DNA from: Alphaproteobacteria bacterium
GTDB taxonomy: Bacteria > Pseudomonadota > Alphaproteobacteria > CALKHQ01
DNA: 64,000 bases
NCBI GenBank assembly: GCA_965227515.1
Contig: CBDDFZ010000001.1
Span: forward strand, 384,001-448,000
Reading direction: 5' to 3'
How positions within the stretch are numbered: the stretch's first letter is position 1; each line of letters opens with the position of its first letter. Below, one piece after another: positions 17,378-23,716 of this stretch. The notes under the pieces are model-generated. The model did not search any database and was not told where the DNA came from. It saw only the letters and a program-made list of their open reading frames with translations. The translations under genes were made by a program, and so were the position numbers.

Positions 17378-17749
17378 CTAACCCACGTCCTTCCACACGC
17401 CATTGGTGTCGCGGCAGGCGGTATCGGATTCACTGCGCGTACCGCTGTCCTCCACGAACGTCACTGTGTAGTCGCGGCAGAACAGGCCCGACTGGGTTTG
17501 GTAGGTGCGCACCGGCAACACAGTCCCCTGGTGCCCGGTTGCCGCATCCTGCCAAGATTCCGCCACCCCGCTCGGATTGCCCTCCAGCGCAATCTGGATC
17601 GCGGTGCGAACGACACCGCTGCGCGCGGGTCCGTTGCCGCTGCCGCCGCTATTCAGCGACAGGCACCCGCCCAACAGCATCGCCGTCAGGCAGGCGATTG
17701 TCGTACGCCGATACGCCGACGCGCGCACGGAAACGCTATTGCCAGCCAT
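17378..17749 (-). CDS. Lipoprotein with RT0821/Lpp0805 (17-kDa surface antigen-like) domain
   Basis: Lipobox LGGC; ALE..W..G.V.PVRTY....CRDY...ACR...GVW; start overlaps the Hint gene end. Confidence 0.75.
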   Translation of the reverse strand: MAGNSVSVRASAYRRTTIACLTAMLLGGCLSLNSGGSGNGPARSGVVRTAIQIALEGNPSGVAESWQDAATGHQGTVLPVRTYQTQSGLFCRDYTVTFVEDSGTRSESDTACRDTNGVWKDVG

Positions 17750-18752
17750 TTTCGATCAGCTCCTGCTCCTCGGACGCGGTCAAATCGTCCCCAACCTGAC
17801 GAAGGTCCTCCGGATCGGGCGCCTGCCCATCGAAATAATCGAAGGAACCGCCGCTTTGGCCGGATTGGCCGCTGAAACCGCTTTCACCCGAGCCGCCGCT
17901 GCCGCCTGAACTGCCGCTGCCGCCAGAGCCGCCGGACCCACCACTGCCGCCGGAGCCGCCAGACTCGCCGCCACCCGAGCCCGAACCGCCGGAATGGCCA
18001 TCGTCGTCATCATCGTCGTCGTCGTCATCGCCGCCGCCGGAGCCGGAGTTGCCGCCACCGCCGGGACCGGAATTGCTGCCGCCGCCGTCATCGTCGTCGT
18101 CGTCATCGCCACCCTTGTTGTGCACCAGGTAGCCGTCCGCGAAATACGTATGGTCGCCGGCCAGGAGCAGGTTGAAGACCTCCAGCTCGGGATCGGCGTC
18201 GTGCGCGTCGATGGACACCACCGTCTCGTGGTCCATTTCGACCACCGGTCGCGGCGCCAGGGCGGTCGCCCCTTCGCTAAGGCTCGCCATCTCCACCCGG
18301 CCGCGCGCCAGCCGGTCGCCGGGGGCCAGCGTTGACACCGCCATCGACGCAACCATGCCGGGGGCCTCGCGCCGCGTCGCCATGGCGTCGATCGCTTTCC
18401 AGCCGTTGGCGGTCATGAACGGGTGTTCGTCGGTCACGAACGGACGACCGCCGTTGAAGCCGTAAAGCTTGCGGCTGCCGAGCCGGGGCCGCTCGATGCC
18501 GATCACACGGTTGGCCCGGCCGCCGCGCCCCATTACCAGCATGCCGACGGCGACTTGCGCGATCGGCAGGCTGCGGCCGTTGGCCAGCAGTACCTCGGTC
18601 TCGCCAGTGAAGCACGACGACGCGTGGGCCGCGTTCAGAATGCCGTCGTCCGTGCCGGTGGGCAGGGTGACCGGCGCCGTGGCCATGGTCAGCGCCACCA
18701 GGCTTGTGGTCGCCAGCAGGCGTGCGTTACGGCGGAATGAGTTCCTTGGCAT
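17736..18752 (-). CDS. Secreted Hint-domain (self-cleaving) protein with Gly/Ser/Asp-rich tail
   Basis: Signal peptide ending AHA; Hint block A CFTGETEV, block B VTDEHPF, block F/G VFNL...HTYFADGYLVHN; GGAG RBS. Confidence 0.85.
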   Translation of the reverse strand: MPRNSFRRNARLLATTSLVALTMATAPVTLPTGTDDGILNAAHASSCFTGETEVLLANGRSLPIAQVAVGMLVMGRGGRANRVIGIERPRLGSRKLYGFNGGRPFVTDEHPFMTANGWKAIDAMATRREAPGMVASMAVSTLAPGDRLARGRVEMASLSEGATALAPRPVVEMDHETVVSIDAHDADPELEVFNLLLAGDHTYFADGYLVHNKGGDDDDDDDGGGSNSGPGGGGNSGSGGGDDDDDDDDDDGHSGGSGSGGGESGGSGGSGGSGGSGGSGSSGGSGGSGESGFSGQSGQSGGSFDYFDGQAPDPEDLRQVGDDLTASEEQELIENGWQ

Positions 18753-18802
18753 CTCCAACCTCCCGATCGTCAGCCATGCCGCGGTTATGCCCCGCGGGAA
18801 CA

Positions 18803-18891
18803 ATGCCGATAACGGCGCGACGCGGCTTTCCATCCGCACATGAAACAAGATTAATGTGGCGAAGGAATATGTGCCTGGGCCGTTATCGCAT
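18803..18891. promoter_or_regulatory. Pair of divergent matched motifs GGAA-N11-GCCGTTATCG(G)CAT, candidate ECF promoters
   Basis: Minus strand 18831-18803 and plus strand 18864-18891 share GGAA, identical spacing and an identical 10-mer. Confidence 0.55.
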
Positions 18892-18926
18892 GTGGACAGG
18901 GACAAACATGGCCGAGCCAGCCACGC

Positions 18927-19472
18927 ATGGATGAACTCAGCGGTCGACGCATGATCGAGATGCTGCCACGACTGCGGCGCTTCGCCTATGGCCTGTGCGG
19001 CGATCCGCATGACGCCGACGACCTGGTGCAGCACACATGCCAGCGGGCCATCGACCGGTTCGACAACTGGCGGCCCGGCACCAGCCTGGAAAACTGGATG
19101 TTCGCCATAGCGCGCAATGCCTACCTGGACCTGTACCGCAGCCGACAGGTGCGGGCCGACCATGCCGCCGCCGTGCGCGCCACGACGGACGGCAGCCTGG
19201 ATGGCGAAGGGCGCGCGGAGCATGGCGTGATGATCGGCGAGATTGTGCCGTTGCTTGGCCGGATGCCGGAGGATCAGCGCACTGCCCTGCTGCTGGCCCT
19301 GGTGGAGGGCCTGAGCTACCAGGAAATCGCCGATATCCAGCAGGTCCCGGTCGGCACCGTGACCAGCCGCATCGGCCGTGCCCGTCAGACCCTGCAGCAG
19401 GCCCTGTCCAGCGAGGCCGGTACGCCGCATCAGCGAGAAGGAGGTGAGTTCGATGTCGCACGCCGTCAGTGA
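18927..19472 (+). CDS. ECF RNA polymerase sigma factor
   Basis: LPRLRRFA, DADDLVQ, WMFAIARN, EGLSYQEIA...GTVTSRIGRAR. Confidence 0.93.
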   Translation: MDELSGRRMIEMLPRLRRFAYGLCGDPHDADDLVQHTCQRAIDRFDNWRPGTSLENWMFAIARNAYLDLYRSRQVRADHAAAVRATTDGSLDGEGRAEHGVMIGEIVPLLGRMPEDQRTALLLALVEGLSYQEIADIQQVPVGTVTSRIGRARQTLQQALSSEAGTPHQREGGEFDVARRQ

Positions 19473-20106
19473 CGCGACCCTGATCGCCTACCATCATAAC
19501 CGCCTGTCCGAGCGCGAGGCCAGGGACGTTGCGGCAACCCTGAAGGCGGATCGCGAGGCCGCGGTGCGCCATGCCGCGCTGGTGACCGAGATCTCCCTGC
19601 TTGGCGTCGCGGTCGGCCGCATCGACCGCCTGCCCGCGCCGCCCGAGGCCGAGGACATGATCAGAGCGGCCACCACAAGCGGACCGCGCCGGTCCAACCG
19701 TGGCGCGGCCTGGCTCAGCCGCGGCGCTGCGTTCCAGGCGCTGGCGGCGTCGCTGTTGCTCGCCATCGGTGTTGCCGCCGGCTTCGCGGTGGCCGAATGG
19801 CGCCACGCCCGCGATGCCGAGAGCCAACGTATCGCCGCCCAAGACCTGGAGCAGGCCCGCGCCCACAGCCGGCAGACCGCGCTGAACATGCTGGCCAGCG
19901 GCAACTCCTACCTGCTCGCCGCCGACGACCGGAGCTGGACGGTCGAGGTGATGCCGGTGCGTACGTTCCAGAACGCAAACGGCGCGTTCTGCCGCGAATA
20001 TCGGGAGACCTGGCAGCTCGGCGCCACGGTAGGTGAGAGCTACCGCATCGCCTGCCGCGACGAGGTCGGCAACTGGCAAGCGGTTGCAACGCTGCAAACG
20101 AGCTGA
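19453..20106 (+). CDS. Membrane anti-sigma factor with periplasmic RT0821-like domain
   Basis: N-terminal SDATLIAY...L anti-sigma-like helix, one TM (ALAASLLLAIGVAAG), C-terminal PVRTF...CREY...ACR...GNW; overlaps sigma stop. Confidence 0.8.
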   Translation: MSHAVSDATLIAYHHNRLSEREARDVAATLKADREAAVRHAALVTEISLLGVAVGRIDRLPAPPEAEDMIRAATTSGPRRSNRGAAWLSRGAAFQALAASLLLAIGVAAGFAVAEWRHARDAESQRIAAQDLEQARAHSRQTALNMLASGNSYLLAADDRSWTVEVMPVRTFQNANGAFCREYRETWQLGATVGESYRIACRDEVGNWQAVATLQTS

Positions 20107-20119
20107 TGGCCGAGGGGCG

Positions 20120-21058
20120 GTGCACGTGATCAACGGCAAGGCGCTCGCGGACCAGCGCACGGCGGAAGGCGCCGATCCGCCCGTTATCGACATGCGCGAC
20201 AAAGGCATCGGTGATCTGGTGGTCACCTGCTGGCTCGCCCACAGTGCGGCCGCTGTCGGCCGCGAGCTGCGCATCAACCCGCGTGGACTGGACACGGTGT
20301 GCCATCTGCTCAGTGTCACCGCACCGGTGCTGACCACGGCGGACGCCGACAACTGGGCCAAGACCGACGGCATCGGTCACCGCTTCGAGTACGCGCAGGT
20401 GGCGCAGGGCCGCCCGATGACCCGCTTCGGCGCCTGGGCGCAGTCGCTCGGCCTGCCGGGCCTGCAGCCGGTACGACCGCGCTACAGCGAGGCCACCGAC
20501 GAGGCCGACTGGGCGGAGGAGGCATGGGCGGCCTCGGCCGAGCCGGGCCAGTTGCGGGTCGCCATGTTCCCGGAGGTGGCGTGGCTGATACGGCGCTGGC
20601 CGCCGGCCTATTTCATCGACCTCGCCGACATGCTGAAGGCCAAGGGCGCGGCGATTGTGATGGTCGGGGCAACCAAGGACATGGTCAGCCAGATGGGCAG
20701 CCGCTGGTATGCCGCCTTCCCGCTGCCCCGGACGGCCGCGTTGATGGCCCGCGCCGATATCGTGATCGGCAACGATTCCGGGCCGGCCCATCTGGCCGGC
20801 ACCATCGGCACGCCGACCTTCGTTGCCGCCGGCCCCACCGACGGCGACCTGGTGTTCGCCCATGACGACAATGTGCGCTGCGTCGGCCTGCCGCCGGGAA
20901 GGCTCGCCTGCCACCCCTGCCACTACGCGGTCGCGCGCGGCTATCGCGACGCCTGCAAGGTCGGCGGCTGCCAGGCGCTGATGACGCTGACCCCCGACGC
21001 GGTGTTCGACTGGCTATGGCCGCAAGTGAAGTCTGCGTCGGTACGCAAGGACAGGTGA
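20120..21058 (+). CDS. Glycosyltransferase family 9 (heptosyltransferase-like)
   Basis: GIGDLV, RRWP...F, IGNDSGPAHLA, GPT, Cys cluster CHPC..C..C; GTG start inferred. Confidence 0.82.
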   Translation: MHVINGKALADQRTAEGADPPVIDMRDKGIGDLVVTCWLAHSAAAVGRELRINPRGLDTVCHLLSVTAPVLTTADADNWAKTDGIGHRFEYAQVAQGRPMTRFGAWAQSLGLPGLQPVRPRYSEATDEADWAEEAWAASAEPGQLRVAMFPEVAWLIRRWPPAYFIDLADMLKAKGAAIVMVGATKDMVSQMGSRWYAAFPLPRTAALMARADIVIGNDSGPAHLAGTIGTPTFVAAGPTDGDLVFAHDDNVRCVGLPPGRLACHPCHYAVARGYRDACKVGGCQALMTLTPDAVFDWLWPQVKSASVRKDR

Positions 21059-21146: not shown

Positions 21147-22194
21147 GAGCGGGATCGTTTTATGCGGAAGCGTATCCTGCATTGACGATGTAGTTGTTGC
21201 ATTCGTGTGGCTGGAACGCGTCGAGTAGTTTTCCGATACGCCGCCATGTGTCGTCGATGGTGCGCTCTGCGGCGCGCCTGAGCAGGTGCTTGAGCTTGGC
21301 GAACACCTGCTCGATGGGATTGAGGTCGGGGCTGTAGGGCGGCAGGAAGAGCAGCCTTGCGCCGGCTTGGCGCAGGGCGGCCCGTACGGCCTTGCCCTTG
21401 TGGCTGCCCAGGTTGTCCATGATGACGATGTCGCCGGGTTTGAGCGTCGGCACCAGGATTTGCTCGACATAGGCGAGGAAGGCCTGACCGTTAATCGGGC
21501 CGTCGAAGACGCACGGTGCGGTGAGCTGGTCGCAGCGCAGAGCAGCGAGGAAGGTCAGGGTGCGCCAGCGGCCGTGCGGTGCCTTGCCGACGAGGCGCCG
21601 GCCGCGCCGGCTCCAGCCCCGCAACGGCGCCATGTTGGTCTTGGCCCAGGTCTCGTCAATGAAGACCAGGCGGGCGGGATCAAGTTTCGCCTGATGACGC
21701 TTCCAGCGCGCGCGGCGCCGCGCCACGTCGGGACGATCCTGCTCGCTGGCGAACGCGGTTTTTTTTGAAGCTCAATCCCTCGGCATGCACAAAGCGCCAG
21801 ATCGCGCCGTAGCTCACCCGGATGCCGCGATCGGCCAACTCGCGCTGCAAGGAGCGCAAGGGAAGGTGCGGCTCGGCAGCCAAACGAGCCTGCACGAAGT
21901 CGCGATGCGGCGCCAATATGATCCGCTTGTGGCCACCGACCTTGCCCGGCGCAACGCTCCCGGTGCGCCGATATCGCTGCGACCACTTCACAACCGCAGA
22001 CACGCTCACATCGAACGCGGATGCCACAGAGCGAACCGTCTCACCGGCCATCACCCGGGCAACAGCACGCTCACGAAGATCATTCGAATAGGGTCGACCC
22101 ATCGCGCCAGCCTCCTCTCAAGACCAACACGTTGAATCAGATTGCCACCCGAGTCGGGAATCCCCTTTCGATTCTTCCAAAAAAGACCCCGCTC
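21147..22194 (-). mobile_element. IS630-family insertion sequence
   Basis: TA duplication (21145-46, 22195-96) in CTAG context; TIRs GAGCGGGATCGTTTT / GAGCGGGGTCTTTTT. Confidence 0.9.
21160..22102 (-). CDS. IS630 transposase encoded as two ORFs joined by -1 slippage at an A8 run (21759-21766)
   Basis: OrfA MGRPYSNDLRER (HTH); OrfB FIDET, MDNL..HK, LPPYSPDLNPIE. Confidence 0.88.
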
Positions 22195-22266
22195 TAGCAT
22201 GACGACCGCTAAGCAGCTCACGCCGCGCAAAAATAATTTGCGTATGGCGTTACGAGAAGACCTAGA

Positions 22267-23568
22267 TCAAGTACTCGTCGATAGCCTGTTGGCAATGGGG
22301 TGATCGGGTTGAAGAGAGACATTATCTTGTTCAGCCTTCAGCCGAACGAAACCTCTAATTACCTTCTCGGTATACTCATACCAACCTTGGCGTGTCCCGG
22401 TTAATATCGACCCATGGGCTGGCTGTTTCAGTCTATTAATTCTTTGATTGAATTGTGTACGACTCAGGGCCGGACCAGAACATTCTTTCATTATTCTATT
22501 GTATGAGCCAAAAATATCTGTGCTACGTCGTTTCAATTCATGACCGTCCGCTGCTGCCCAAAGTATATATTTGTAGTCATCGCTGTATTTTTGCGTTGCA
22601 GTCTCATACGGGCCTTTTAGCCGCATTTCCATCGCGTCAGCAGCATCCGCCATAGCTTGTTCAAAAAGAGGAGCGGTAACCTTACCTCCGTTTTCTGCAT
22701 GAAAGACTCTCCAAAATAGTTTCTCCGAAATAAAATGAACGTAATGAGGAAAGCCATCGCTAATACGAGCTATTCTTATTATCGTAGTTTCATCGATTTC
22801 TATCTCAAGTTTATTTGCCGCAAATTTTACTATTTCAAACCTCGCCTCCCACGGCAATTGCCCGAGATTAACCGTATGAAAATATCTATCGGCGCTGCCA
22901 TGAGCAGCCATAATAGCATCTACGCTTTCACCTAAACCACAAAAAATAAATTTAGATGAAATGTGCTTGTCTGATATCTGTTTTATAAAATTGGTAAACA
23001 GTTCTTGTTCTCCCCTATTTACAATTTGATCAAACTCATCGATTATCACTACAGGCTGATCAGCATACGTTTCGGATAGAAATTTCATCAATCGAACGGC
23101 TTCATTTACTGAACTTGGCTCATTTATTTGACCTTCATGCATTGTCTTGCTACTACCCAAGGTAATGCCAAATTTCGCAAACTCTACCTTCTGCTGCTTT
23201 ATATTCGCAATGACAAGAGGGCTTTTTGCTGCTGCCTCGTCAAAAATGTCACGAACTACGCTGCCAAAACTACTTTGTGTATCGCATCCAATAACAATTG
23301 GATCTGCACTTGCCCCAGCGGCGATACCAAAAGCAGCTGTTTGAGCAAGAGAAGACTTACCCACACCTCTCAATCCGTGTATTAATACATGTCGACCTTG
23401 TTGATATAATGCTTGCTTGATACCTGCTAATTGTTCAGCACGACCTCGGAGGAATTCTTCTGATTGCAATGGCTGAGCGGGCGACAATACTTTCGCCAAA
23501 GCCATACCGAACTGATGCTCTTGCTGAGTTGATACGGGGCCCAAGCCTGGAAGGATTTTGTTTGCCAT
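22267..23568 (-). CDS. AAA+/P-loop ATPase (Orc1/Cdc6- or STAND-like), AT-rich
   Basis: F.GR, Walker A GLRGVGKSS, Walker B IIDEFD, SDGFPHY helix motif; low GC. Confidence 0.8.
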   Translation of the reverse strand: MANKILPGLGPVSTQQEHQFGMALAKVLSPAQPLQSEEFLRGRAEQLAGIKQALYQQGRHVLIHGLRGVGKSSLAQTAAFGIAAGASADPIVIGCDTQSSFGSVVRDIFDEAAAKSPLVIANIKQQKVEFAKFGITLGSSKTMHEGQINEPSSVNEAVRLMKFLSETYADQPVVIIDEFDQIVNRGEQELFTNFIKQISDKHISSKFIFCGLGESVDAIMAAHGSADRYFHTVNLGQLPWEARFEIVKFAANKLEIEIDETTIIRIARISDGFPHYVHFISEKLFWRVFHAENGGKVTAPLFEQAMADAADAMEMRLKGPYETATQKYSDDYKYILWAAADGHELKRRSTDIFGSYNRIMKECSGPALSRTQFNQRINRLKQPAHGSILTGTRQGWYEYTEKVIRGFVRLKAEQDNVSLQPDHPIANRLSTST

Positions 23569-23641
23569 AGGTACAATTATACCCGGACATTAAACATAGT
23601 CACACCCTCTTACCCGAGGGCATAAAACAATGTGTGGAGAA

Positions 23642-23716
23642 TGGTGCCGCCGGGGTGAATTGAACACCCGACCCCACCCTTACCAAGGGTGTGCTCTACC
23701 CCTGAGCTACGGCGGC
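23642..23716 (-). tRNA. tRNA-Thr(GGT)
   Basis: GCCGCCGTAGCTCAG...CACCC-TTGGTAA-GGGTG...GTTCAATTC...GGCGGCACCA; encoded CCA. Confidence 0.96.

What the first reader, a model, noticed from the sequence alone, without database searches (positions are those of the whole stretch)
17378..21058. Candidate new signalling system: ECF sigma/anti-sigma divergent from a secreted self-cleaving Hint protein and a lipoprotein that shares the anti-sigma's sensor domain
Seen: the left operon encodes a signal peptide + Hint domain + acidic Gly/Ser tail protein, overlapping by 14 nt a lipoprotein (LGGC). The right operon encodes an ECF sigma, an overlapping 1-TM anti-sigma and a GT9. The anti-sigma's periplasmic C-terminus (QTALN..PVRTFQNANGAFCREY..ACRDEVGNW) is clearly homologous to the lipoprotein body (QIALE..PVRTYQTQSGLFCRDY..ACRDTNGVW). 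Known: Hint domains autoprocess, and ECF anti-sigmas sense through periplasmic domains. Inference: an autoproteolytically released periplasmic peptide and a paralogous lipoprotein partner or decoy control anti-sigma activity in a feedback loop. I do not know of this four-gene architecture being characterised.
Basis: partly seen in the sequence, partly recalled or inferred. Interest (0 to 1): 0.88.

Follow-up and report, generated by a model that had tools for sequence, protein, structure and literature searches.

The report
Sigma-factor switch with self-made ligand

Summary
All five genes, the 14-nt overlap and the homology between the lipoprotein and the anti-sigma C-terminus (BLASTP E 3e-10) are real.

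The module recurs. 11 of 53 loci found through the Hint domain carry the ECF sigma/anti-sigma pair. 9 of 20 loci found through the anti-sigma carry the secreted-tail gene.

The interpretation needs revising in four ways:
- **Core of the module.** It is sigma, an anti-sigma with a PF16998-type sensor, a secreted Gly-rich acidic protein ending in L-S/T-P-x-E-E-A-x-x-I-x-x-G-W, and a PF16998 periplasmic or lipoprotein paralogue.
- **Hint domain.** It looks like a type-A bacterial intein-like domain and sits exactly between signal peptide and tail. It is optional: 6 of the 9 tail genes lack it.
- **GT9 gene.** It is not conserved (0 of 53 loci).
- **Feedback.** One ECF-type promoter motif precedes both operons, which supports a feedback loop.

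A complex model supports tail binding to the lipoprotein (ipSAE 0.82, best control 0.16). A related anti-sigma subfamily carries the same motif fused to its own C-terminus (8 of 11). The direction of control and the physiological signal remain unknown. I found no description in print.

The parts
17378..17749 (-). PF16998 ('17 kDa antigen 2') lipoprotein, 123 aa. Paralogue of the anti-sigma sensor domain and predicted receptor of the tail motif.
   Evidence: Pfam 34.7 bits against cut-off 26.6. Lipobox LGGC read from the sequence. AF2 model with a helix at 45-57 plus five strands, pLDDT above 90 over residues 50-120. Complex model.
17736..18752 (-). Secreted precursor, 338 aa: signal peptide, Hint (type-A BIL-like) domain, polyacidic Gly/Ser tail, C-terminal GW motif.
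   Evidence: Translation. SD GGAGG before ATG 18752. Orthologues at 49-55% identity.
18615..18752 (-). Signal peptide region (residues 1-46). It has RR at 7-8, a hydrophobic core, and A-H-A at 42-44 just before S-S-Cys47.
   Evidence: Read from the sequence. The N-terminal region is conserved in Hint-bearing and Hint-less relatives. No signal-peptide predictor was run.
18117..18614 (-). Hint domain, Cys47 to Asn212. No homing endonuclease is present, and the +1 residue is Lys.
   Evidence: Pfam Hom_end_hint 31.7 bits against cut-off 32.1. C47, T107, H110, D200, H201, H211, N212 and K213 are invariant in 6 sequences. The A1 profile hits solved inteins, best E 2e-7.
17739..18116 (-). Disordered Gly/Ser/Asp tail (residues 213-338), net charge -28.
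   Evidence: Composition. No Pfam family on the last 54 residues.
17739..17783 (-). Conserved C-terminal motif L-T-A-S-E-E-Q-E-L-I-E-N-G-W-Q (residues 324-338). Predicted ligand of the PF16998 domain.
   Evidence: L, E, I, G and W are invariant in 11 tails. These residues lie in the modelled interface. A narrow pattern for the motif hits only 2 places in the six-frame genome, each directly upstream of a PF16998 gene.
18808..18835 (-). ECF-type promoter motif (GGATGGAA, 14 nt, GTTATC) facing the Hint-lipoprotein operon.
   Evidence: A weight matrix trained only on 12 sites from other genomes ranks it 2nd in the 5.5-Mb genome, at 22.9 bits. Sequence read.
18860..18887 (+). Matching ECF-type promoter motif facing the sigma/anti-sigma operon. 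The two sites are back to back.
   Evidence: Same matrix: 16.8 bits, rank 20 of 72 positions at 13 bits or more. Sequence read.
18927..19472 (+). ECF (group 4) sigma factor, 181 aa.
   Evidence: Sigma70_r2 E 1.7e-16, Sigma70_r4_2 E 1e-16. TIGR02937 83 bits against cut-off 42.9.
19453..20106 (+). Single-pass anti-sigma factor, 217 aa. N-terminal anti-sigma domain, hydrophobic span at about residues 91-114 (19723-19794), periplasmic PF16998-like sensor at about residues 138-212 (19864-20088).
   Evidence: Overlaps sigma by 20 nt. Profile of 12 orthologues. Among those orthologues zf-HC2 is found in 6 of 12 and PF16998 in 10 of 12. BLASTP to the lipoprotein E 3e-10.
20033..21058 (+). GT9 glycosyltransferase. 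The probable start is Met54 at 20192, by my reading. It is adjacent but not part of the conserved module.
   Evidence: PF01075 47.1 bits. tblastn found it in 0 of the 53 Hint loci and 0 of the 20 anti-sigma loci.

Best explanation
The four genes form one conserved ECF sigma signalling module. Its logic is a periplasmic ligand-receptor-paralogue circuit, not Hint chemistry.

Inferred from shared promoters: the sigma factor drives its own operon and the divergent operon. The divergent operon encodes a secreted, disordered, polyacidic Gly-rich protein and a PF16998 lipoprotein.

Modelled, not measured: the last ~20 residues of the secreted protein (L-S/T-P-x-E-E-A-x-x-I-x-x-G-W, close to the free C-terminus) form a helix that docks on the PF16998 domain of the lipoprotein.

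Inferred from homology and natural fusions: the anti-sigma's periplasmic sensor is a paralogue of that domain and reads the same tail. Sigma activity would then depend on how much free tail is available, and the lipoprotein would compete for it or anchor it.

Inferred for the Hint domain: in this genome the precursor carries a type-A BIL-like Hint domain exactly between the signal-peptide cleavage site and the tail. Asn212 cyclisation, or BIL-type splicing, would remove it and leave the same mature product that Hint-less relatives make directly.

Unknown: whether tail binding switches sigma on or off, and what external cue acts on the system. A cue acting on the acidic, sometimes His-rich tract, such as cations, is a guess.
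For: Co-occurrence, starting from the Hint domain. A profile scan of one genome per species gave 53 loci. 11 have sigma plus anti-sigma next to the Hint gene. 8 of those 11 also have the PF16998 gene after it, and in the other 3 the contig ends there. They span Alpha- and Gammaproteobacteria.

Co-occurrence, starting from the anti-sigma. In 401 alphaproteobacterial genomes, 20 besides G000 had full-length hits among the rows listed. Of those 20 loci, 19 have sigma adjacent, 9 have a tail or Hint gene, and 11 have a second PF16998 gene.

The motif. L, E, I, G and W are invariant in 11 tails. In the own genome a narrow pattern hits only 2 six-frame places, both just upstream of PF16998 genes. 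The second is an unlinked pair at C1:2993196-2994647.

Binding model, lipoprotein residues 40-123 with the 40-residue tail. ipSAE was 0.82 in all 3 runs, and the best of 3 controls scored 0.16. That mark was reached by 58 of 80 solved complexes and 2 of 110 mismatched pairs. Runs agree in at least 74% of contacts and partner pLDDT is at least 73. The interface uses all five invariant tail residues, and E56, T82, G88, C91, C112, R113 and G117 of the domain. No solved relative of the domain was found that could explain the score as memory.

Link to the anti-sigma. 12 of the 20 modelled interface positions are identical in the window's anti-sigma sensor. A related anti-sigma subfamily carries the motif fused to its own C-terminus: 8 of 11 homologues, and three genome copies at 100, 77 and 33% identity.

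Promoters. The same motif, GGA-T/A-G-R-A-A, 14 nt, G-T-T-R-T-C, precedes both operons in most loci. A matrix trained on 12 sites from other genomes ranks the window's Hint-side site 2nd genome-wide. It also finds correctly oriented sites in 9 of the 20 independent anti-sigma loci and in L001 and L008.

Hint as an optional self-removing insert. 6 of the 9 tail genes lack it. The N-terminal leader is conserved with and without it. The catalytic residues are invariant and the +1 residue is Lys, as described for type-A BILs in passages of PMC4031507.
Against: - No complex was modelled for the anti-sigma sensor with the tail, because the cap is one job.
- The window's anti-sigma is a divergent member. 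It has Asn for the near-invariant Glu and Leu for the near-invariant Trp of the domain helix region. Only 1 of 5 helix interface positions is identical to the lipoprotein. It gets no Pfam hit and sits on a long branch of 2.45 in the tree.
- 11 of 20 anti-sigma loci have no tail gene nearby, so this anti-sigma family can work without a linked ligand gene.
- In G001 the Hint-lipoprotein pair and the sigma/anti-sigma pair lie on different contigs.
- The promoter matrix finds no site at 15 bits or more in L011, L021, L096, L097, L098, L103, L107, L108, L110 or L111. In the own genome its top hit lies before an unrelated small gene pair.
- The complex tool used my own shallow alignments of 11 rows, so its calibration holds only roughly.
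- There are no expression data.
- The AF2 model of the fused anti-sigma gives only pLDDT values, not contacts.
Confidence: 0.55

Rival explanations
1. Output-and-anchor reading. The polyacidic secreted proteins are what the sigma factor is for, for example a periplasmic or surface polyanion that buffers or binds cations. The lipoprotein only anchors them through the GW helix. The anti-sigma sensor either measures the finished product as negative feedback or senses something else entirely.
For: The promoter motif also precedes further secreted acidic Gly-rich genes that lack the GW motif: L099 at 28.0 bits, L101 at 23.1 and L093 at 18.7, plus an extra gene in L010 and L012. Tails carry net charges of -13 to -59 in most cases, and some are His-rich. 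A PiuC-like hydroxylase gene follows the lipoprotein gene in 5 loci. An unlinked GW-protein plus lipoprotein pair exists in the own genome without any sigma gene nearby.
Against: It does not explain why the anti-sigma keeps a paralogue of the tail-binding domain. It also does not explain why a whole anti-sigma subfamily fuses the motif to itself. It overlaps with the main reading in its product-sensing form.
Confidence: 0.25
2. Hint autoproteolysis is the regulated step: a conditional self-cleavage releases the peptide signal, as in Hedgehog-type ligand maturation.
For: The catalytic residues Cys1, T-x-x-H, H-N and the +1 Lys are invariant in 6 sequences. The Hint-bearing form is kept in at least 14 loci of two classes. 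9 of 10 Hint-type precursors have a twin-arginine leader, compatible with export after folding.
Against: 6 of 9 tail genes in the anti-sigma-centred sample have no Hint domain yet keep leader, tail, motif, lipoprotein gene and promoter. In L094 the Hint ORF and the GW ORF are separate. The same Hint subtype at 35-42% identity sits in unrelated surface proteins of Saccharibacteria and other lineages, with no sigma gene nearby. That pattern fits a mobile insert.
Confidence: 0.12
3. Unrelated neighbours, or a Hint-toxin plus immunity cassette that merely lies beside an ECF pair.
For: The gene order of a Hint domain, a C-terminal piece and a small downstream binding protein resembles polymorphic toxin loci (recalled knowledge). 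The A1 profile also hits Hint domains of ADP-ribosyltransferase-named chains in the PDB.
Against: The C-terminal piece is low-complexity Gly/Ser/Asp with a 15-residue motif and no toxin domain. The linkage to sigma and anti-sigma recurs in 11 of 53 and 9 of 20 loci, with shared promoters.
Confidence: 0.02

Closest known systems
RpoE-RseA-RseB/DegS of E. coli and AlgU-MucA-MucB/AlgW with MucE (recalled knowledge, not read here)
   Same: An ECF sigma is held by a single-pass anti-sigma. A periplasmic C-terminal peptide with an aromatic residue next to the free carboxyl end acts as the signal. An accessory periplasmic protein modulates the anti-sigma. The sigma operon is autoregulated.
   Different: Here the predicted peptide receptor is the anti-sigma's own PF16998-type domain and a paralogous lipoprotein, not a PDZ protease. 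The ligand is a dedicated, co-regulated secreted protein rather than misfolded porins. No protease gene is linked.
Type-A bacterial intein-like (BIL) domains (Amitai 2003 and Dassa 2004, as summarised in passages of PMC4031507)
   Same: Hint domain with Cys1, block-B T-x-x-H, C-terminal His-Asn, no +1 nucleophile and no endonuclease. It occurs in secreted proteins, and cleavage products are expected to dominate.
   Different: Here it sits directly after a signal peptide and before a ligand-bearing tail of an ECF-controlled operon. It is dispensable in orthologous systems.
Hedgehog autoprocessing
   Same: A Hint domain inside the precursor of a secreted signalling ligand.
   Different: Hedgehog releases the N-terminal domain with lipid attached. 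Here the C-terminal tail would be released, no adduct is indicated, and the Hint domain is optional.
PF16998 / '17 kDa surface antigen' lipoproteins of Alphaproteobacteria
   Same: The lipoprotein passes the Pfam cut-off. The domain hit 189 of 401 sampled genomes with my profile at E 1e-15 or better.
   Different: No function or structure is on record for the family in what I searched. Only a subfamily is paired with GW-motif proteins: 0 of 15 standalone loci have the motif.
Polymorphic toxin loci with a Hint domain and a downstream immunity gene (recalled)
   Same: The order Hint, C-terminal cargo, small binding protein.
   Different: The cargo is a disordered acidic tail with a short motif, not a toxin.

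Membership tests
ECF (group 4) sigma-70 factors | Only regions sigma-2 and sigma-4, about 180-200 aa | tested here: met
   Sigma70_r2 60.2 bits and Sigma70_r4_2 60.7 bits, 181 aa. TIGR02937 83 bits against cut-off 42.9.
ECF (group 4) sigma-70 factors | Co-transcribed anti-sigma and an autoregulated promoter | tested here: inconclusive
   There is a 20-nt overlap with the anti-sigma gene. A conserved promoter-like motif lies upstream at 16.8 bits. No transcript data exist.
Class I anti-sigma factors (zf-HC2-type N-terminal domain plus one membrane span) | N-terminal anti-sigma domain | tested here: inconclusive
   The window protein has no Pfam hit and only NF052375 at 27.3 bits against cut-off 100. 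6 of 12 aligned orthologues hit zf-HC2.
Class I anti-sigma factors (zf-HC2-type N-terminal domain plus one membrane span) | Single transmembrane helix between the cytoplasmic and periplasmic parts | tested here: inconclusive
   A hydrophobic stretch at residues about 91-114 was read from the sequence. No membrane-topology predictor was run.
PF16998 (17kDa_Anti_2) | Score over the Pfam gathering cut-off of 26.6 bits | tested here: met
   The lipoprotein scores 34.7 bits.
PF16998 (17kDa_Anti_2), for the anti-sigma sensor domain | Score over the Pfam gathering cut-off | tested here: not met
   15.2 bits, E 0.019, for the C-terminal 87 residues. Homology is nevertheless shown by BLASTP E 3e-10 to the lipoprotein and by 10 of 12 orthologues matching PF16998. 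It is a divergent relative, not a Pfam-threshold member.
Hint superfamily / type-A BIL | Sequence match to Hint or intein models | tested here: inconclusive
   Pfam Hom_end_hint scores 31.7 against cut-off 32.1, Vint 21.6 against 27, and Hint_2 17.8 against 28.4. The six-sequence profile hits solved inteins at E 2e-7.
Hint superfamily / type-A BIL | Cys1, block-B T-x-x-H, C-terminal His-Asn | tested here: met
   C47, T107, H110, H211 and N212 are invariant in 6 sequences.
Hint superfamily / type-A BIL | No nucleophile at +1 and no homing endonuclease | tested here: met
   +1 is an invariant Lys213. The domain is 166 residues.
Hint superfamily / type-A BIL | Autocleavage or splicing activity | not testable with these tools
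   This needs expression of the precursor and mass analysis.
Bacterial lipoproteins | Lipobox with an invariant Cys after a signal peptide | tested here: inconclusive
   L-G-G-C at residues 26-29, read by eye. By my reading relatives have a lipobox-like Cys and 7 have a plain signal peptide. No predictor was run.
GT9 heptosyltransferase-like | Pfam PF01075 over the cut-off | tested here: met
   47.1 bits against cut-off 22. All NCBIfam heptosyltransferase equivalogs score far below their cut-offs.

The most novel reading that the evidence does not exclude
A bacterial counterpart of autoprocessed ligand signalling. The polyacidic precursor stays tethered by its leader until a condition-gated BIL reaction frees the tail, for example one gated by redox state at Cys47 or by metal. 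The acidic tract acts as the true sensor of envelope cations and controls exposure of the GW helix. Free GW helix is then partitioned between the anti-sigma sensor and the lipoprotein decoy, giving an autocrine, thresholded ECF switch. In the fused subfamily the same helix acts as a built-in autoinhibitor. The linked PiuC-like hydroxylase might modify the tail before export.
Probability: 0.15. Interest if true: 0.9.

Novelty: new variant of a known kind. Interest (0 to 1): 0.72.

Why it matters
ECF sigma factors are one of the largest bacterial signalling families, yet for most groups the sensed signal and the role of conserved neighbour genes are unknown. This module gives a concrete, testable mechanism for one group:
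- a self-encoded peptide ligand,
- a sensor domain with no known function (PF16998, common in Alphaproteobacteria),
- a paralogous decoy or anchor,
- natural variants that act as built-in controls, namely with Hint, without Hint, and with the ligand fused to the sensor.

It would give the '17 kDa antigen' domain its first proposed biochemical role, as a receptor for a C-terminal helix. It would also show a bacterial intein-like domain sitting inside the precursor of a signalling ligand.

Tried and rejected
**Searches that led nowhere**
- The search for related loci with the anti-sigma alignments A2 and A3 failed because no stretch was conserved enough. I used the genome search instead.
- The search for homologous proteins with the lipoprotein gave only 2 proteins, so it was of little use.
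- The ESM Atlas search with the second GW protein gave only unnamed clusters.

**Structure comparison**
- Foldseek against the PDB gave no match at E 0.001 or better.
- VIA-align wide gave a best Z of 6.2, to a pseudopilin, which is below the level that means more than a common arrangement. No fold assignment is made.
- A PDB sequence search with the lipoprotein gave nothing below E 0.45.

**Expression**
- No RNA holder was listed among the 20 runs returned.

**Regulon in the own genome**
- Apart from the two sites in the window, the best matrix hits fall inside genes or before an unrelated small gene pair at C1:2400757-2401216. No further target is claimed in this genome.

**Tree of the PF16998 domains**
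- The tree is poorly resolved: 21 of 39 inner branches are open. It shows only that anti-sigma and periplasmic copies cluster by type, needing 4 changes against about 14 for shuffled labels, with 0 of 500 shuffles as low.
- I dropped two spurious rows, relabelled two rows by hand, and four module proteins were missed by my pattern.

**Literature**
- 'Hint domain' + 'anti-sigma' + 'ECF' gave 1 unrelated paper.
- '17kDa_Anti_2' gave 0 papers.
- PF16998, IPR032635 and COG4520 gave 0 papers.
- 'anti-sigma' + '17 kDa' + 'surface antigen' + 'ECF' gave 2 papers. I read passages only. Both merely list '17 kDa surface antigen' genes in stress transcriptomes.
- The main text of the ECF re-classification paper (PMC7826278) has none of the terms Hint, intein, surface antigen, 17 kDa, COG4520 or heptosyltransferase.

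**Readings rejected**
- Toxin-immunity cassette: the tail has no toxin domain.
- GT9 as part of the system: it is found in no other locus.

Full report
**What is in the window**

On the minus strand there are two genes:
- A 338-aa precursor at 17736-18752. The true start is the ATG at 18752, behind GGAGG.
- A 123-aa lipoprotein at 17378-17749, which overlaps the precursor by 14 nt. It has the lipobox L-G-G-C and hits PF16998 at 34.7 bits against a cut-off of 26.6.

The precursor reads as a signal peptide (RR at 7-8, A-H-A at 42-44), then a Hint domain from Cys47 to His211-Asn212, then a 126-residue Gly/Ser/Asp tail with net charge -28.

On the plus strand there are three genes:
- An ECF sigma factor at 18927-19472.
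- A single-pass anti-sigma at 19453-20106, overlapping sigma by 20 nt.
- A GT9 glycosyltransferase at 20033-21058.

The anti-sigma C-terminus and the lipoprotein body are homologous: 40% identity over 47 residues, BLASTP E 3e-10.

**Is the arrangement conserved? Starting from the Hint domain**

A single-protein scan found 4 relatives. A scan with a six-sequence profile found 53 loci in the one-genome-per-species collection. I ran tblastn with the window's proteins over all loci then held, followed by ORF inspection. This gave:
- 11 of the 53 loci (L001, L010-L018, L021) have an ECF sigma and an anti-sigma of the same type next to the Hint gene.
- 8 of these 11 also have a PF16998 gene right after the Hint gene. 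In the other three the contig ends there.
- The 11 come from Alphaproteobacteria and Gammaproteobacteria. The alphaproteobacterial records are titled Rhodospirillales, Kiloniellaceae, Pelagibius, Hyphomicrobiales and an unclassified Alphaproteobacteria MAG. The gammaproteobacterial ones are Motiliproteus, Amphritea, Halopseudomonas and one unclassified MAG.
- In 42 loci none of the three was found. There the same Hint subtype, at 27-45% identity over the full-length matches, sits in other proteins of Saccharibacteria and other candidate-phyla bacteria, Bdellovibrio relatives and others.
- The GT9 gene was found in none of the 53.

A close relative, G001, has the Hint-lipoprotein pair but no sigma gene within 7 kb. 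Its sigma/anti-sigma pair of this family lies on another contig.

**Starting from the anti-sigma**

A profile of 12 anti-sigmas finds 294 cluster representatives at E 1e-30 or better among 1.84 billion proteins. Nearly all of the best 150 are full length, at about 200-240 aa.

In 401 alphaproteobacterial genomes, 189 have a hit at E 1e-15 or better. Most of these are to the C-terminal domain alone. Among the rows listed, 20 genomes besides G000 have a full-length hit, and 138 further matches were not listed.

I fetched those 20 loci and examined them:
- 19 of 20 have the sigma gene adjacent.
- 9 of 20 have a tail or Hint gene adjacent.
  - Three carry a Hint domain: L064, L094 and L098.
  - Six have none: L093, L095, L099, L101, L103 and L104.
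- 11 of 20 have a second PF16998 gene. In L096, L097 and L100 it forms the C-terminal domain of a protein of about 300 aa.
- Seven loci (L105-L111) show only sigma and anti-sigma, or in L108 the anti-sigma alone. L102 is the G001 case described above.

In five of the six Hint-less proteins the same kind of leader runs straight into an acidic Gly-rich tract and the same C-terminal motif. L103 is a longer form with the motif internal.

The core of the module is therefore sigma, anti-sigma, tail protein and PF16998 paralogue. The Hint domain is an optional insert at the junction between the signal-peptide cleavage site and the tail.

**The motif**

Eleven tails align to L-S/T-P-x-E-E-A-x-x-I-x-x-G-W, followed by one residue and the stop in 10 of the 11. 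L, E, I, G and W are invariant.

In the six-frame translation of the 5.5-Mb own genome a narrow pattern for the motif hits two places only:
- the window's precursor;
- a 306-aa secreted Gly/Asn-rich protein at C1:2993727-2994647, which lies immediately upstream of another PF16998 lipoprotein gene.

A looser pattern hits five places, including these two. The motif is specific to a subfamily: 0 of 15 standalone PF16998-type loci (L078-L092, flanks of 1.5 kb) have it.

**Does the tail bind the domain?**

One complex job was allowed. I gave it the lipoprotein (residues 40-123, 11-row alignment) and the last 40 residues of the precursor (11-row alignment).
- ipSAE was 0.82 in all three runs. The best of three controls scored 0.16.
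- In the tool's calibration this mark was reached by 58 of 80 solved complexes and 2 of 110 mismatched pairs. Those counts hold only roughly with my own alignments.
- The runs agree in at least 74% of contacts, and partner pLDDT is at least 73.

The interface covers tail residues 14-39, including all five invariant ones. On the lipoprotein it covers residues 56-60, 81-91, 112-113, 117 and 122, which include the invariant E56, T82, G88, C91, C112, R113 and G117.

The domain model has one helix packed on a five-stranded sheet, with pLDDT above 90. It has no clear solved relative: Foldseek finds nothing at E 0.001 or better, and the best VIA Z is 6.2. The PDB sequence search finds nothing either. 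The pass is therefore unlikely to come from memory of a solved complex. It remains a model, not a measurement.

**Link to the anti-sigma**

This step is inferred. Three observations bear on it.
1. Of the 20 interface positions, 12 are identical in the window's anti-sigma sensor. That covers the R-T-F/Y-Q strand, C-R, G and V, but only 1 of 5 helix positions.
2. One of the 20 anti-sigmas, in L109, carries the motif on its own C-terminus, about 35 residues after the sensor domain.
   - A 77%-identical relative and a 33%-identical one from another family keep it.
   - Among 11 homologues from the large protein collection, 8 end with a recognisable G/R-W motif.
   - Such natural fusions argue that sensor domain and motif work together.
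3. An AF2 model of the L109 periplasmic part gives pLDDT 84-85 to the fused C-terminal helices, although no other row of the alignment has them. That is compatible with docking, but no contacts are reported.

Against this, the window's own anti-sigma is a divergent member. It has Asn for the near-invariant Glu, Leu for the near-invariant Trp, no Pfam hit and a long branch.

**Regulation**

The intergenic regions show one motif in front of both operons: GGA-T/A-G-R-A-A, 14 nt, G-T-T-R-T-C.

I trained a weight matrix only on 12 sites from seven other loci. Results:
- It ranks the window's Hint-side site (18808-18835, minus strand) 2nd among all positions of the own genome, at 22.9 bits.
- It ranks the sigma-side site (18860-18887, plus strand) 20th of 72 positions at 13 bits or more.
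- In the independent anti-sigma-centred loci it finds correctly oriented sites at 15 bits or more before the sigma gene, the tail gene, or both, in L064, L093, L094, L095, L099, L100, L101, L104 and L105.
- It also finds such sites in L001 and before the unlinked Hint gene of G001 (L008).
- It finds none in L011, L021, L096, L097, L098, L103, L107, L108, L110 and L111.
- It marks further genes for secreted acidic Gly-rich proteins without the GW motif in L093, L099 and L101.

I infer that the sigma factor drives its own operon, the tail-lipoprotein operon and further polyacidic secreted proteins. No transcript data could be found.

**The Hint domain**

- Cys47, Thr107-x-x-His110, Asp200-His201, His211-Asn212 and Lys213 are invariant in six sequences.
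- The profile hits solved inteins, with PI-SceI at E 2e-7.
- Single Pfam models fall just under their cut-offs.
- The features match what passages of PMC4031507 give for type-A BIL domains: a C-terminal His-Asn, no +1 nucleophile, and cleavage dominating over splicing.

Either reaction would remove the domain and leave a product like that of the Hint-less genes. I therefore read it as a self-removing, probably mobile insert. A gating role is possible but not needed.

**Comparison and novelty**

- The module works like other ECF systems in which a periplasmic C-terminal peptide and an accessory protein control a single-pass anti-sigma, such as RpoE/RseA/RseB/DegS and MucE/AlgW (recalled).
- It differs in three ways. 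The receptor is the anti-sigma's own domain. A paralogue of that domain is co-expressed. The ligand is a dedicated product of the regulon.
- I found nothing in print on this arrangement or on the PF16998 domain's function. The supplementary tables of the ECF classification paper were closed and may list the group.
- I rate it a new variant of a known kind.

**Confidence by step**

| Step | Confidence |
|---|---|
| Conserved, functionally linked module | about 0.9 |
| Tail binds the lipoprotein domain | about 0.65 |
| Tail is read by the anti-sigma and controls sigma | about 0.5 |
| Hint cleavage is itself regulatory | about 0.1-0.2 |

Noticed in passing
window 21160-23716: Right after the GT9 gene lies an IS630-family transposase split into two overlapping ORFs (21680-22102 with HTH domains, 21160-21726 with DDE_3). 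Next comes a low-GC stretch (40-51% against about 68%) with a 433-aa AAA/STAND-like ATPase gene (22267-23568). A tRNA-Thr(GGT) gene sits at 23642-23716. This looks like a small integrated island at a tRNA gene.
   Followed up: partly
G000 C1:2993196-2994647 (outside the window; L059): A second, unlinked pair in the same genome. A 306-aa secreted Gly/Asn-rich protein has an internal copy of the GW motif and sits directly upstream of a 124-aa PF16998 lipoprotein. No sigma gene is nearby. L103 has the same long type next to a sigma/anti-sigma pair.
   Followed up: partly
L001 7348-8238, L008 6282-6965, L099 10371-11042, L101 6137-6808, L104 9487-10158: A PiuC/YbiX-like (PKHD-type) hydroxylase-looking gene follows the PF16998 gene in five module loci. 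I named it by eye from the translations and ran no family scan. It is not in the window, where a sugar-binding protein gene follows.
   Followed up: no
L010 5144-5988, L012 1450-2332, L093 5097-5561, L099 10975-11580, L101 5495-6040: These are extra genes for leader plus acidic Gly/Asp/Glu-rich proteins with neither Hint domain nor GW motif. In L093, L099 and L101 they are preceded by the same promoter motif at 18.7-28.0 bits.
   Followed up: partly
L025 5650-7848 (Mucilaginibacter angelicae record): Five tandem copies of this Hint subtype lie head to tail in one frame region, at 36-41% identity to the window's domain.
   Followed up: no
L094 1393-2493: In this locus the Hint ORF (181 aa, no leader, ends H-N-N) and the GW-tail ORF (128 aa, with its own twin-arginine leader) are separate genes about 170 nt apart. 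This is either a real split or an assembly artefact.
   Followed up: no
L016 5369-5802 and 5995-7326: In the Amphritea MAG locus the sigma gene matches in two frames, suggesting a frameshift. The Hint protein's tail has a different repeat and no GW motif.
   Followed up: no
G000 C1:2400757-2401253: The best genome-wide hit of the promoter matrix (23.0 bits), with a second hit on the other strand (20.4 bits), lies before a small two-gene pair that looks like an antitoxin/ParE-type toxin pair by eye. It is probably a chance match.
   Followed up: partly
PMC3238334, Table 2 (passage): Two genes annotated '17 kDa surface antigen' in Sphingomonas wittichii rose 17-fold and 9.3-fold after sodium chloride but not PEG8000, together with ECF sigma genes. 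Whether they are PF16998 members was not checked.
   Followed up: no
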